Origin: Escherichia coli
Lineage (GTDB): Bacteria; Pseudomonadota; Gammaproteobacteria; Enterobacterales; Enterobacteriaceae
Direction: 5' to 3' (one strand)
Length of the DNA: 64,000 bases
Assembly: GCF_003018255.1 (NCBI RefSeq)
Contig: NZ_CP027440.1
Part shown: in pieces, positions 9,104 through 11,212 of the stretch
How the letters are laid out: the number at the start of each line of letters is the position of its first letter
Numbering within the stretch: position 1 is the first letter of the stretch
The notes under the pieces: generated by a model
What the model saw: the letters and a program-made list of their open reading frames with translations, nothing else
What the model was told of the DNA's origin: nothing
The model's database searches: none
Translations under genes and position numbers: made by a program

Positions 9104-11212
9104 ATGTCAACCGGATTACGTTTCACGCTGGAAGTGGACGGTCTGCCACCGGACGCGTTTGCGGTGGTCTCCTTTCATCTGAACCAGTCACTCTCTTCGC
9201 TCTTTTCCCTCGATCTCTCTCTGGTCAGCCAGCAGTTTCTCTCCCTTGAATTTGCGCAGGTGCTGGACAAAATGGCCTACCTGACGGTATGGCAGGGCGA
9301 TGACGTACAGCGCCGGGTGAAAGGTGTGGTGACCTGGTTTGAACTGGGGGAGAACGACAAAAACCAGATGCTGTACAGCATGAAGGTGTGCCCACCGCTG
9401 TGGCGCACAGGGCTGCGCCAGAACTTCCGTATCTTCCAGAATGAGGACATCGAAAGCATACTCGCGACGATCCTGAAAGAAAACGGGGTGACCGAGTGGA
9501 GTCCGCTGTTCAGCGAGCCGCATCCTTCCCGTGAGTTTTGTGTCCAGTACGGCGAAACCGATTACGATTTCCTGTGCCGGATGGCGGCGGAGGAAGGCAT
9601 CTTCTTTTATGAGGAGCACGCGCAAAAAAGTACCGACCAGAGCCTGGTCCTGTGCGACACCGTGCGTTATCTGCCGGAGTCCTTTGAGATCCCCTGGAAT
9701 CCGAACACCCGTACCGAGGTGAGCACCCTATGCATCAGCCAGTTCCGCTACAGCGCACAAATCCGCCCATCTTCCGTGGTGACCAAAGACTACACCTTTA
9801 AACGACCCGGCTGGGCAGGGCGTTTTGATCAGGAAGGCCAGCACCAGGATTACCAGCGCACACAGTATGAAGTGTATGACTACCCCGGACGTTTCAAGGG
9901 TGCCCACGGGCAGAACTTTGCCCGCTGGCAGATGGATGGCTGGCGAAACAACGCAGAAGTGGCGCGCGGAACAAGCCGTTCGCCGGAGATATGGCCGGGA
10001 CGGCGAATTGCGCTGACGGGGCATCCGCAGGCGAACCTGAACCGGGAATGGCAGGTGGTGGCAAGTGAACTGCACGGCGAGCAGCCGCAGGCGGTGCCGG
10101 GACGCAGGGGTTCAGGTACCACGCTGAATAACCACTTTGCGGTAATACCGGCAGACAGAACATGGCGGCCACAGCCGTTGCTGAAACCGCTGGTGGACGG
10201 CCCGCAGAGCGCCGTCGTGACGGGACCGGCAGGAGAAGAAATCTTCTGTGATGAACATGGCCGCGTGCGGGTGAAATTTAACTGGGACCGCTATAACCCG
10301 TCAAACCAGGACAGTTCATGCTGGATCCGTGTGGCACAGGCGTGGGCAGGCACCGGCTTTGGCAACCTGGCGATACCGCGTGTGGGTCAGGAAGTCATTG
10401 TGGACTTCCTCAACGGCGATCCGGACCAGCCGATTATTATGGGGCGTACCTACCACCAGGAAAACCGCACCCCCGGCAGCCTGCCGGGAACAAAGACGCA
10501 GATGACCATTCGTTCGAAAACCTATAAGGGCAGCGGGTTTAATGAACTGAAGTTTGACGATGCGACAGGGAAAGAACAGGTCTACATCCACGCGCAAAAG
10601 AACATGAACACCGAGGTGCTGAATAACCGGACCACGGATGTGATAAACAACCATGCTGAGACCATCGGCAACAATCAGGTGATTGCGGTTACCAACAATC
10701 AGATACAGACGGTGGGCGTTAACCAGATAGAGACGGTGGGCAGTAACCAGATCATTAAAGTGGGCTCTGTTCAGGTGGAAACGATTGGACTTGTTCGTGC
10801 GCTGACCGTGGGCGTGGCGTATCAGACGACGGTAGGTGGCATTATGAACACCTCGGTGGCCCTGATGCAGTCCTCGCAGATCGGTTTGCATAAATCGTTG
10901 ATGGTCGGGCTGGGTTATGACGTCAAAGTCGGAAATAACGTTACCTTCACCGTTGGTAAAACGAAAAAGGATGATACCGGACAGACCGCGATTTACTCCG
11001 CCGGTGAGCATCTGGAACTCTGCTGTGGTAAGGCAAGGCTGGTGCTGACTAAGGACGGACAAATTTTTCTCAACGGCACAAAAATTCATTTGCAGGGTAA
11101 GGAGCAGGTTAATGGTGACTCACTGTTGATTAACTGGAACTGTGCAGCCTCGAAATCCCCACCGAAGACCCCTGATGAAAAGCAGGATACGCCGGATATG
11201 AGAGAGTACTGA
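9104..11212 (+). CDS. vgrG: T6SS spike protein VgrG with C-terminal extension
   Basis: 702 aa; MSTGLRFTLEVDGLP... N-terminus, C-terminal beta-helix-like repeats (NNQVIAVTNNQIQTVGVNQIETVGSNQI) followed by about 100 extra residues. Confidence 0.85.
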   Translation: MSTGLRFTLEVDGLPPDAFAVVSFHLNQSLSSLFSLDLSLVSQQFLSLEFAQVLDKMAYLTVWQGDDVQRRVKGVVTWFELGENDKNQMLYSMKVCPPLWRTGLRQNFRIFQNEDIESILATILKENGVTEWSPLFSEPHPSREFCVQYGETDYDFLCRMAAEEGIFFYEEHAQKSTDQSLVLCDTVRYLPESFEIPWNPNTRTEVSTLCISQFRYSAQIRPSSVVTKDYTFKRPGWAGRFDQEGQHQDYQRTQYEVYDYPGRFKGAHGQNFARWQMDGWRNNAEVARGTSRSPEIWPGRRIALTGHPQANLNREWQVVASELHGEQPQAVPGRRGSGTTLNNHFAVIPADRTWRPQPLLKPLVDGPQSAVVTGPAGEEIFCDEHGRVRVKFNWDRYNPSNQDSSCWIRVAQAWAGTGFGNLAIPRVGQEVIVDFLNGDPDQPIIMGRTYHQENRTPGSLPGTKTQMTIRSKTYKGSGFNELKFDDATGKEQVYIHAQKNMNTEVLNNRTTDVINNHAETIGNNQVIAVTNNQIQTVGVNQIETVGSNQIIKVGSVQVETIGLVRALTVGVAYQTTVGGIMNTSVALMQSSQIGLHKSLMVGLGYDVKVGNNVTFTVGKTKKDDTGQTAIYSAGEHLELCCGKARLVLTKDGQIFLNGTKIHLQGKEQVNGDSLLINWNCAASKSPPKTPDEKQDTPDMREY

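What the first reader, a model, noticed from the sequence alone, without database searches (positions are those of the whole stretch)
9104..11212. VgrG carries a C-terminal extension beyond the spike repeats
After the beta-helix-like repeat region the protein continues for about 100 residues (…NVTFTVGKTKKDDTGQTAIYSAGEHLELCCGKARLVLTKDGQIFLNGTKIHLQGKEQVNGDSLLINWNCAASKSPPKTPDEKQDTPDMREY). Such extensions often act as docking modules for the downstream PAAR-Rhs effector, and no separate adaptor/chaperone gene lies between vgrG and rhs (66-bp spacer).
Basis: inference. Interest (0 to 1): 0.3.

Follow-up and report, generated by a model that had tools for sequence, protein, structure and literature searches.

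The report
Ordinary VgrG spike, short tail
The supposed 100-residue add-on of this E. coli type VI secretion spike protein is mostly the normal end of the spike itself; only a 23-residue floppy, proline-rich tail is extra, and it is a common, probably accessory feature rather than a dedicated docking domain.

Summary
The ORF (9104-11212, 702 aa), the quoted sequence and the 66-bp gap to the Rhs gene are all real. The claim of about 100 residues beyond the spike repeats is not.

- **The repeats continue.** The 8-residue Val-Gly register runs unbroken to about residue 679. Residues 612-675 align with the ordered spike of extension-less Pseudomonas VgrG1 structures.
- **Where VgrGs normally end.** Of 76 independent full-length VgrG representatives, 65 end exactly at the Asn matching N679.
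- **The real extra part.** It is 23 residues (680-702, CAASKSPPKTPDEKQDTPDMREY): proline- and charge-rich, no domain hit, low AlphaFold confidence.
- **Distribution of the tail.** It occurs in an enterobacterial clade always followed by a Tse5-type Rhs with a short PAAR-like N-terminus. Only its first 11 residues or so are conserved, and its length varies from 12 to 26.
- **Evidence against a docking role.** A Pseudocitrobacter VgrG paired with a near-identical (123/125) Rhs N-terminus has only a 12-residue tail. P. aeruginosa VgrG1c, the known Tse5 carrier, ends one residue after the Asn.
- **What varies with rhs.** The whole 3' third of vgrG varies together with rhs as a mosaic unit.

The junction is present in 2648 of 5426 complete E. 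coli genomes. This is an ordinary, already annotated VgrG-Rhs pair. The docking role of the tail is untested and at best accessory.

The parts
9104..11212 (+). vgrG (tssI), 702 codons plus stop
   Evidence: ORF list and translation. TIGR03361 VI_Rhs_Vgr E=2.5e-189 over residues 7-517. Annotated 'type VI secretion system tip protein VgrG' (WP_001561468.1) in E. coli DETEC-S792, which is 100% identical over 9104-11400.
9188..10084 (+). gp27-like hub domain (residues 29-327)
   Evidence: Pfam Phage_GPD E=2.2e-75. AF2 pLDDT is mostly above 90.
10253..10453 (+). gp5-like OB-fold (residues 384-450)
   Evidence: Pfam Phage_base_V E=3.6e-15.
10502..10831 (+). First part of the trimeric beta-helix spike recognised by Pfam (residues 467-576)
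   Evidence: Pfam Gp5_trimer_C E=1e-28.
10832..11140 (+). Continuation of the beta-helix and the terminal antiparallel beta-prism up to the near-invariant terminal Asn679 (residues 577-679).
   Evidence: Gly-first octad register from 522 to 642 and onward. Alignment to ordered residues of 7q5p and 4mtk. Columns 600-679 are occupied in at least 84% of 89 VgrGs, and N679 is conserved in 85 of them. AF2 strands at 636-641, 644-649 and 654-657, with pLDDT 74-84 over 610-660. Foldseek aligns about 692-704 columns to full-length canonical VgrGs.
11141..11209 (+). True C-terminal tail, residues 680-702 (CAASKSPPKTPDEKQDTPDMREY): proline- and charge-rich, clade-specific
   Evidence: Columns are occupied in at most 19% of the alignment. 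No family hit. AF2 block-mean pLDDT falls from 63 (residues 681-690) to 47 (691-700) and 36 (701-702), with no regular structure. The proximal motif C-G/A-x-x-x-x-P-P-x-A/T-P is conserved in orthologues; the distal part is variable or absent.
11213..11278 (.). 66-bp vgrG-rhs spacer with a purine-rich RBS-like stretch (AGAAGGAA) upstream of the rhs ATG
   Evidence: Sequence. No terminator-like or promoter-like site. Spacers of 46-141 bp in related loci.
11279..15487 (+). rhs, 1402-aa intact ORF (Rhs core plus C-terminal toxin)
   Evidence: NF041261 RHS_core over residues 1-1258 (score 2723), RHS repeats and Rhs_assc_core.
11279..11419 (+). Rhs N-terminal PAAR-like peptide (residues 1-47), homologous to Tse5-NT, ending at the N|PVNP site that aligns with the Tse5 K47|P48 self-cleavage site
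   Evidence: Sub-threshold PAAR_motif hit (E=0.0023, 18.6 bits against a cut-off of 27). 8cp6 chain B (Tse5 shell) starts at the residue aligned to P48. Tse5-NT description in PMC10684867.
11414..11647 (+). Rhs N-terminal plug domain (DUF6531, residues 46-123)
   Evidence: Pfam DUF6531 E=1.2e-18. The same domain is the plug that anchors the N-terminal fragment in Tse5.

Best explanation
This is a canonical T6SS spike protein: a gp27-like hub, a gp5-like OB-fold and a trimeric beta-helix.

The segment flagged as a ~100-residue extension is mostly (residues 611-679) the normal last stretch of that beta-helix and its terminal antiparallel beta-prism. By homology to solved VgrGs, this part forms the flat triangular platform on which PAAR or PAAR-like domains sit.

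Only 23 residues (680-702) lie beyond the near-universal C-terminal Asn of VgrGs. They form a proline- and charge-rich, probably disordered tail.

Inferred mechanism:
- The downstream Rhs has no transmembrane region and needs no Eag chaperone.
- It loads through its short N-terminal PAAR-like peptide (homologous to Tse5-NT) onto the platform of the spike.
- vgrG and rhs are co-transcribed.
- The specificity-bearing unit that is inherited together with rhs is the whole C-terminal third of VgrG, not the tail alone.
- The tail most likely lies back along the spike, as the short acidic tail of Salmonella VgrS does. At most it fine-tunes or stabilises loading, and its distal half is dispensable.
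For: **Shown here**
- ORF, tail and spacer.
- Domain architecture.
- The octad register continues to about 679.
- Residues 612-675 are homologous to ordered spike residues of 7q5p and 4mtk. The 7q5p model covers residues 8-643 of 645.
- 65 of 76 independent VgrG representatives end at the N679 column, and the tail columns are occupied in at most 19% of sequences.
- AF2: good confidence through 610-660, low confidence and no structure in 680-702.
- Best structural matches are full-length canonical VgrGs.
- The tail has no family hit.
- Tail length is 12-26 aa in orthologues and only the proximal ~11 residues are conserved.
- Pseudocitrobacter pairs a 12-aa tail with a near-identical Rhs N-terminus, 123 of 125 residues.
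- The P. aeruginosa VgrG1c reading frame ends ...VDINC.
- The Rhs N-terminus is homologous to Tse5.
- Mosaic identity profiles put the breakpoints at vgrG codon ~511 (between E. coli alleles) and ~361 (against Pseudocitrobacter), with rhs on the same side as the 3' part of vgrG (also the hit ends).
- No terminator in the spacer.

**From the literature**
- The PAAR platform and the fold-back tail of VgrS (bioRxiv 10.1101/2024.12.20.629533).
- Tse5-NT is the PAAR-like part needed for secretion with VgrG1c (PMC10684867).
Against: - No direct interaction data exist for this protein.
- The monomer AF2 model cannot show the trimeric helix (DSSP sees few strands there). My single-chain trimer+Rhs chimera failed, with mean pLDDT 33.5.
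- The proximal tail motif (C-G-A-x-x-x-P-P-x-A-P) is conserved across genera and always sits next to this Rhs class, which hints at some selected function.
- Tail swaps change effector specificity in other species.
- The VgrG1c C-terminus had to be reconstructed across a frameshift in a low-quality assembly.
- Pseudomonas VgrG1 proteins have about 30 further ordered residues after the aligned block, so the exact structural equivalence of the last strands rests on the large alignment rather than on those two structures.
Confidence: 0.8

Rival explanations
1. One reading: residues 680-702 are a dedicated docking and specificity element. They bind the N-terminal region of the downstream Rhs and so replace an adaptor or chaperone.
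For: - All 22 tail-bearing loci (the window, the 20 scan loci whose VgrG has the tail, and MS6192/L002) have a Tse5-type Rhs 46-141 bp downstream. In L025 the aligned block does not reach the true C-terminus (see 'Noticed in passing').
- A distant VgrG (P0165) whose C-terminus begins with a similar N-T-G-A-A-K-P-A-P motif does too.
- Three tail-less VgrGs sampled are followed by DUF2169 or Tox-PAAR-like genes instead.
- The tail is the most diverged part between E. coli alleles that carry different Rhs N-termini.
- Tail swaps set effector specificity in A. dhakensis, including for an Rhs effector, and in other species.
Against: - VgrG1c of P. aeruginosa, the carrier of the homologous Tse5, has no such tail (PMC10684867).
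- Pseudocitrobacter has only a 12-aa tail with an almost identical Rhs N-terminus.
- The distal half is not conserved.
- AF2 confidence is low.
- The association is confounded by shared descent: most loci are Enterobacteriaceae.
- The co-varying unit is about 190 residues, not the tail.
Confidence: 0.2
2. The tail has no function of its own. It is a linker stub or recombination joint at the boundary of the exchangeable vgrG-3'/rhs cassette. For example, it could be the remnant of the Pro-rich linker that in 'evolved' VgrGs leads to a C-terminal domain.
For: - Similar G-A-A-K-P-P/A-P starts lead into long C-terminal extensions in P0034 and P0165.
- Tail length is very variable and the ends differ.
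- Sequence homology between E. coli alleles breaks at codon 680.
- Natural fusions and deletions have junctions at residues 677-690 (L001, P0026, P0022).
Against: - The proximal motif, with Cys680 and the P-P-x-A-P, is kept across genera at 36-55% identity, even where the body is only 36-52% identical.
- The terminal PDMR[EQK][YF] recurs in Escherichia, Trabulsiella and Buttiauxella.
Confidence: 0.2
3. The C-terminal region is a small effector or enzymatic domain, making this an 'evolved' VgrG.
For: None beyond the presence of extra residues.
Against: - Only 23 extra residues.
- No Pfam, NCBIfam or PDB match.
- Low-complexity composition: 4 Pro and 9 charged residues of 23.
- No predicted structure.
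Confidence: 0.01

Closest known systems
Canonical VgrG spikes without extension: P. aeruginosa VgrG1 (PA0091; PDB 4mtk, 4uhv, 6h3l) and P. protegens VgrG1 (7q5p)
   Same: Same architecture end to end. phmmer E=5e-101 to 7e-97, Foldseek E=1e-61 to 5e-57 with about 700 aligned columns. Residues 612-675 align to their ordered terminal spike.
   Different: The E. coli protein has about 8 more octad repeats in the helix and a 23-residue Pro-rich tail after the terminal Asn. Their partner effectors carry prePAAR, transmembrane and full PAAR modules and need Eag chaperones (PMC8765631).
Salmonella Typhimurium VgrS (PDB 9mlp; bioRxiv 10.1101/2024.12.20.629533)
   Same: An enterobacterial VgrG serving a PAAR-Rhs effector. 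It has a short acidic C-terminal tail (residues 711-729, ~31 A) after the PAAR platform that runs back down the spike, and its function is also unproven.
   Different: VgrS works with a split-PAAR Rhs1 that needs an Eag chaperone, whereas here the Rhs follows directly and has only a short PAAR-like peptide. I could not align the tail sequences.
P. aeruginosa VgrG1c (VgrG4, PA2685) - Tse5 (PA2684) pair
   Same: The Rhs here shares with Tse5 the short N-terminal PAAR-like peptide, the PVNP site aligned to the K47|P48 cleavage site, and the DUF6531 plug. The vgrG lies immediately upstream with no chaperone.
   Different: VgrG1c ends ...VDINC, one residue after the terminal Asn, so it has no Pro-rich tail.
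VgrG C-terminal tails that dictate effector specificity (A. dhakensis VgrG1-3, including the Rhs nuclease TseI; also A. tumefaciens, V. parahaemolyticus; PMC8668125)
   Same: Mosaic divergence of the vgrG 3' end together with rhs is seen here too.
   Different: Those swaps covered residue 650 to the end (last strands plus tail), and most of those effectors use dedicated chaperones. Nothing has been tested for this E. coli protein.
EAEC VgrG1 (PDB 6sjl) with DUF2345 and TTR C-terminal extension binding Tle1
   Same: An E. coli VgrG in which a true C-terminal extension docks the effector.
   Different: That extension is about 200 folded residues with recognisable domains. The present VgrG matches 6sjl only over residues 6-505 and has no DUF2345 or TTR.

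Membership tests
VgrG / TssI (T6SS spike) | gp27-like hub domain (Phage_GPD) | tested here: met
   PF05954 E=2.2e-75 over residues 29-327. TIGR03361 scores 630 bits against a cut-off of 186.
VgrG / TssI (T6SS spike) | gp5-like OB-fold followed by the Val-Gly octad beta-helix | tested here: met
   PF04717 and PF22178. Octad register from 522 to about 679. Structural matches to VgrG1 and VgrS.
VgrG / TssI (T6SS spike) | Encoded in a T6SS locus next to hcp | tested here: met
   hcp at 8376-8894, with tssB/C/E/F/G/J/K and tagH upstream.
'Evolved' VgrG (C-terminal effector or adaptor domain such as DUF2345/TTR, ACD, PG-binding) | A folded domain beyond the terminal beta-helix Asn | tested here: not met
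   Only 23 residues follow N679, with no family or PDB hit and low pLDDT.
VgrG with a specificity-determining C-terminal tail (as in A. dhakensis or A. tumefaciens) | A divergent C-terminal end that co-varies with the cognate effector | tested here: met
   The E. coli alleles are 93-100% identical up to codon 510 and 47-87% afterwards, together with a different rhs. The tail is the most diverged part.
VgrG with a specificity-determining C-terminal tail (as in A. dhakensis or A. tumefaciens) | The tail is required for binding or delivery of the effector | not testable with these tools
   This needs truncation or swap mutants, or pull-downs. Comparative data argue against necessity of the distal tail.
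PAAR-domain effector (label used for the downstream Rhs) | A Pfam PAAR_motif domain above threshold | tested here: not met
   No PF05488 hit at E<=0.1 on the full protein. The isolated N-terminus gives 18.6 bits against a cut-off of 27, matching one repeat only. It is better described as PAAR-like, as for Tse5-NT.
Tse5-type Rhs (short PAAR-like N-terminal peptide + DUF6531 plug + Rhs shell) | N-terminal ~47-residue peptide ending at a PVNP junction, followed by DUF6531 | tested here: met
   Alignment to 8cp6 chain B starting at P48, E=6.7e-18. DUF6531 E=1.2e-18.
Tse5-type Rhs (short PAAR-like N-terminal peptide + DUF6531 plug + Rhs shell) | N-terminal autoproteolysis and VgrG-dependent secretion | not testable with these tools
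   Requires biochemistry.

The most novel reading that the evidence does not exclude
The conserved proximal tail motif (Cys680-Gly/Ala-x-x-x-x-Pro-Pro-x-Ala/Thr-Pro), contributed three times by the VgrG trimer, might structurally complement the unusually short PAAR-like peptide of Tse5-type Rhs proteins. In Tse5 only about 29 residues of that peptide are free. The sharpened tip would then be a composite of VgrG tails plus one Rhs peptide: a 'split PAAR' supplied partly by the spike. This would explain why these Rhs proteins need no chaperone and how a peptide far smaller than a PAAR cone caps a three-fold platform.
Probability: 0.06. Interest if true: 0.55.

Novelty: already known. Interest (0 to 1): 0.12.

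Why it matters
As it stands this is routine. It is the standard E. coli vgrG-rhs pair, already annotated, and its junction is present in about half of complete E. coli genomes.

The useful outcomes are corrective:
- Pfam's Gp5_trimer_C model stops at residue 576, which makes the last ~100 residues of long VgrGs look like an unannotated extension when they are spike.
- The near-invariant terminal Asn is a practical landmark for deciding whether a VgrG really has an extension.

One small open question remains: how a ~29-residue PAAR-like peptide of Tse5-type Rhs proteins docks on a VgrG, and whether short clade-specific tails contribute. No solved structure among those searched here, and none of the papers read, shows that interface.

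Tried and rejected
1. **Tail-only and last-63-residue searches** against PDB sequences and Pfam found nothing meaningful.
2. **The search for homologous proteins** with the C-terminal 103 aa and with the Rhs N-terminus returned almost only short near-identical fragments. They were of little use for diversity.
3. **Single-chain chimera** (3 x VgrG 586-702 + linkers + Rhs 1-125) with an 18-row paired alignment, meant to see whether AF2 orders the tail next to the Rhs peptide. Mean pLDDT was 33.5, so it is uninformative.
4. **Terminal Cys hypothesis.** I asked whether the Cys right after the terminal Asn marks Tse5-type partners. Rejected: two other VgrGs ending in ...NC are followed by ordinary PAAR proteins and a third by no T6SS gene at all.
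5. **VgrGO1/EagR literature** on E. coli concerns a different chaperone-dependent vgrG island, not this locus type.
6. **Effector-domain ('evolved VgrG') reading** rejected for lack of any domain and because the tail is too short.
7. **Minus-strand and out-of-frame ORFs** overlapping the region (10316-11089 -, 11086-11280 -, 11272-11580 +) were treated as spurious. They lie inside strongly supported genes.
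Full report
**Observation**

The ORF at 9104..11212 (+) encodes a 702-residue protein whose C-terminus is exactly as quoted. It is followed after 66 bp by a 1402-codon Rhs ORF at 11279..15487. The spacer has an RBS-like AGAAGGAA and neither a terminator-like nor a promoter-like site.

The window is an E. coli T6SS locus: tssK-J-tagH-tssG-F-E-C-B on the minus strand, then hcp, vgrG, rhs, a small immunity-like gene and ISEc1 copies, then yafV. A complete genome (DETEC-S792) is 100% identical over 9104-11400 and annotates the gene as 'type VI secretion system tip protein VgrG'.

Pfam recognises Phage_GPD (29-327), Phage_base_V (384-450) and Gp5_trimer_C (467-576). Nothing is recognised after residue 576, and NCBIfam's VgrG models stop at 517.

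**The 'extension' is mostly spike**

Four independent lines show that residues 577-679 are the ordinary end of the VgrG beta-helix.

1. *Repeat register.* Written in rows of eight, Gly occupies the first position of 14 of the 16 rows starting at residues 522-642. After a one-residue shift the pattern continues to about 679. Hydrophobicity autocorrelation peaks at lag 8 (0.45-0.51) up to residue 620. The repeats therefore do not stop at residue ~610 as the finding implies.
2. *Homology to solved spikes.* Residues 612-675 align with residues 548-611 of P. protegens VgrG1 (7q5p) and 543-601 of P. aeruginosa VgrG1 (4mtk). These are 645- and 643-residue VgrGs with no extension. The 7q5p model is ordered for residues 8-643 (PMC8765631).
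3. *Where VgrGs end.* An exhaustive HMMER search with residues 467-702 found 3259 relatives. I aligned 76 full-length representatives together with 12 orthologues fetched from genomes.
   - Columns for residues 600-679 are occupied in at least 84% of sequences.
   - N679 is nearly invariant (85 of 89).
   - 65 of the 76 independent representatives end exactly at that Asn, and 6 more end within two residues.
   - Columns 680-702 are occupied in at most 19% of sequences, essentially only in the orthologues I had added.
4. *Structure prediction.* An AlphaFold2 model from this alignment has mean pLDDT 86.5.
   - Confidence is 74-84 over 610-660, with the antiparallel strands 636-641, 644-649 and 654-657 typical of the terminal prism.
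   - Block-mean confidence is 63 for residues 681-690, falling to 47 and then 36, with no regular structure in 680-702.
   - Its best PDB matches are full-length canonical VgrGs (4mtk, 7q5p, 4uhv, and 9mlp = Salmonella VgrS) over about 692-704 alignment columns.

The real extra segment is 23 residues, CAASKSPPKTPDEKQDTPDMREY (nt 11141-11209). It has 4 Pro and 9 charged residues and matches no family or solved chain.

**What the tail looks like across relatives**

A scan of one genome per species returned 21 loci with related VgrG C-termini. They come from Trabulsiella, Yokenella, several Citrobacter, Buttiauxella, Phytobacter, Serratia silvae, Pseudocitrobacter, E. albertii and an Ignatzschineria MAG, plus some MAG contigs that are evidently Escherichia DNA.

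- Twenty of the 21 continue past the terminal Asn. In the most distant one (L025, 41% identity over the matched block) the scan's aligned block stops about 23 residues before the true C-terminus, which begins ...NLDCGVAQAAPEQP.
- Only the proximal part, C-G/A-x-x-x-x-P-P-x-A/T-P, is conserved.
- Total tail length is 12-26 residues.
- Several tails stop right after the proline motif (…PDAPK, …PDAPEQ, …PPKTPG). Others end in PDMR[EQK][YF] or in unrelated sequence.
- Identity to the window protein is 36-55% in residues 680-690 for all orthologues except Pseudocitrobacter (91%) and L025 (18%), and 0-50% in 691-702.

Every one of these VgrGs is followed, 46-141 bp downstream, by an Rhs. In all but L025 it begins M-x-G-K/Q-P-A-A-R-x-G-D ... 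C-S-x-C-P ... [11 protein letters not shown]; in L025 it opens with a longer, different N-terminus (MGGSGKKAARLGD…) before …CSPCP…[11 protein letters not shown].

**The partner Rhs**

The Rhs N-terminus is not a full PAAR domain. PAAR_motif is not reported on the whole protein at E<=0.1. The isolated N-terminus scores 18.6 bits against a cut-off of 27, for a single repeat.

It is homologous to P. aeruginosa Tse5. Chain B of 8cp6 begins at the residue aligned to P48 of the E. coli protein (E=6.7e-18), and DUF6531 follows. According to PMC10684867:
- Tse5 self-cleaves at K47|P48.
- Residues 30-47 are anchored inside the shell by the DUF6531 plug.
- Residues 1-29 are flexible.
- This 5-kDa 'PAAR-like' fragment is what is needed for secretion with VgrG1c.

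No transmembrane region or Eag-type chaperone is involved. That fits the absence of an adaptor gene here.

**Is the tail the docking module?**

*For:*
- The clade-wide linkage of tail-bearing VgrGs with this Rhs class.
- A distant VgrG (P0165), whose C-terminus begins N-T-G-A-A-K-P-A-P, is also followed by a Tse5-type Rhs.
- Three tail-less VgrGs I sampled are followed by DUF2169 or Tox-PAAR-like genes instead.
- There is experimental precedent that VgrG C-terminal tails set effector specificity, including for the Rhs nuclease TseI of A. dhakensis (PMC8668125).

*Against:*
- The P. aeruginosa vgrG1c-tse5 locus, read across a frameshift in the only assembly I could reach, shows VgrG1c ending …EIEILSPNVDINC. 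That is one residue after the Asn.
- Pseudocitrobacter faecalis has an Rhs N-terminus that differs from the window's at only 2 of 125 residues but a VgrG tail of only 12 residues.
- The distal half of the tail is not conserved.
- The association is confounded by common descent.
- The Cys after the Asn is not specific either: two other VgrGs ending in …NC precede ordinary PAAR genes and a third precedes no T6SS gene.

An attempt to let AlphaFold2 judge failed. The input was a single-chain construct of three copies of residues 586-702 plus Rhs 1-125 with paired orthologue rows, and the mean pLDDT was 33.5.

**What does co-vary with rhs**

Nucleotide identity profiles are mosaic.

| Comparison | 5' part of vgrG | 3' part of vgrG | Tail + spacer | rhs |
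|---|---|---|---|---|
| Window vs. another E. coli allele at the same locus (MS6192) | 93-100% (codons 1-510) | 67-87% (from codon ~511) | 47% | 62-86% |
| Window vs. Pseudocitrobacter | 53-74% (codons 1-360) | 78-97% (from codon ~361) | – | high identity continues into rhs |

Hit ends at query nt ~1532-1543 and ~2031-2041 in the E. coli survey mark the same joints. The unit inherited with rhs is therefore the whole beta-helical third of VgrG (platform included), not the tail.

**Most likely mechanism (inferred)**
- vgrG and rhs are co-transcribed.
- The VgrG trimer presents its terminal prism (about residues 634-679) as the platform.
- The Rhs docks there through its N-terminal PAAR-like peptide.
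- The short acidic, proline-rich tails leave the platform free. They probably run back along the spike, as described for the 19-residue tail of Salmonella VgrS (bioRxiv 10.1101/2024.12.20.629533).
- At most the tails contribute secondary contacts.

**Comparison with known systems and novelty**

The protein meets every testable defining feature of VgrG/TssI. It fails the defining feature of an 'evolved' VgrG, which is a folded C-terminal domain. It resembles the 'divergent tail' VgrGs in pattern, but the decisive functional feature cannot be tested here.

The tail-spacer-rhs junction is found with at least 80% coverage in 2648 of 5426 complete E. coli genomes, almost always above 97% identity. 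This is an ordinary, already annotated arrangement and interest is low.

The only non-trivial residue is the unsolved question of how Tse5-type Rhs peptides cap a VgrG, and whether the conserved proximal tail motif takes part. I give that reading a probability of about 6%.

Noticed in passing
L001 (NZ_CP180597.1, rhsE locus between yncH and ydcC), locus coordinates 7001-10426: A 1141-aa ORF annotated as TssI/VgrG is a natural in-frame fusion. VgrG residues 1-677 (…DSLLIN) are joined to the C-terminal ~460 residues of an Rhs ([10 protein letters not shown]… through the toxin). The toxin C-terminus is the same as in the window's Rhs (…WQECWVN), and it is followed by the same dsORF-e4 gene.
   Followed up: partly
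window 9104-12700 compared with L002 and L006: vgrG is mosaic. The 5' two-thirds are nearly identical between E. coli alleles, while the beta-helix third plus rhs differ (breakpoint about codon 511). The 3' half of vgrG plus rhs is far more similar to Pseudocitrobacter than the 5' half is (breakpoint about codon 361). This indicates cassette-like exchange of spike end plus rhs.
   Followed up: partly
window 11279-15487: The Rhs ORF is intact (1402 aa) in the window. In the closely related DETEC-S792 genome, PGAP annotates it as a frameshifted, C-terminally incomplete pseudogene plus a separate 'hypothetical protein'. This is probably an annotation artefact of an unmodelled toxin C-terminus, unless the two sequences differ downstream of 11400.
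   Followed up: no
window ~15050-15894: The Rhs C-terminal toxin region after the PxxxxDPxGL motif is glycine-rich and hydrophobic (…[10 protein letters not shown]…[12 protein letters not shown]…[12 protein letters not shown]…). This is reminiscent of the glycine-zipper pore-forming Tse5-CT. The downstream 'dsORF-e4' protein starts with a lipoprotein-like signal (MKKYIFLVLFLLCGCSP), which would fit an envelope-located immunity protein.
   Followed up: no
window 16161-21012: There are three ISEc1/ISAs1-family (H-repeat) transposase copies: 16161-17298 (apparently interrupted at 17069), 17913-19049 and 19876-21012. They are interleaved with an orphan Rhs C-terminal fragment (17422-17805) and small candidate immunity ORFs (for example 19197-19595). 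DETEC-S792 has only two copies here.
   Followed up: no
L005, L007, L009 (contigs of MAGs labelled Lentisphaerae, Collinsella, Akkermansia): Short contigs carry vgrG-tail/rhs junctions that are identical or nearly identical to E. coli or E. albertii alleles (identical to the window's for L005) but sit in MAGs of unrelated phyla. This is almost certainly binning contamination.
   Followed up: no
proteins P0012, P0022, P0026: Database proteins join the VgrG tail region to other sequence:
- a 165-aa 'NADAR family protein' ending with VgrG residues 642-702;
- a VgrG tail joined at …AASKAP to Rhs residue ~99;
- a tail joined at …AASKSP back to VgrG residue ~107.

These are either rearrangements at the tail or assembly chimeras.
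   Followed up: no
window 11141-11143 (Cys680) and the ends of other VgrGs: A Cys directly after the terminal Asn is conserved in 12 of 13 members of the tail clade. It also ends P. aeruginosa VgrG1c (…DINC) and several unrelated VgrGs (…KINC, …RVNC). It does not track the type of downstream PAAR or Rhs, and its role is unexplained.
   Followed up: partly
L031 (GCA_025792535.1 CP083353.1, P. aeruginosa), locus coordinates 3864-9326: vgrG1c and tse5 are each split by frameshifts in this assembly, probably sequencing errors. The VgrG1c C-terminus and the Tse5 N-terminus had to be reconstructed from two frames.
   Followed up: partly
L025 (MAG contig WRFI01000137.1), locus 559-2817: The 89-sequence alignment places this 753-aa VgrG's terminal block out of register: its 'N679' is an Asn inside …QPTQSN|DGSYSE…, about 23 residues after the true end of its spike (…NLDCGVAQAAPEQP). 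The 24-residue 'tail' and the 0.18/0.00 tail identities listed for L025 are therefore not comparable with the other orthologues.
   Followed up: no
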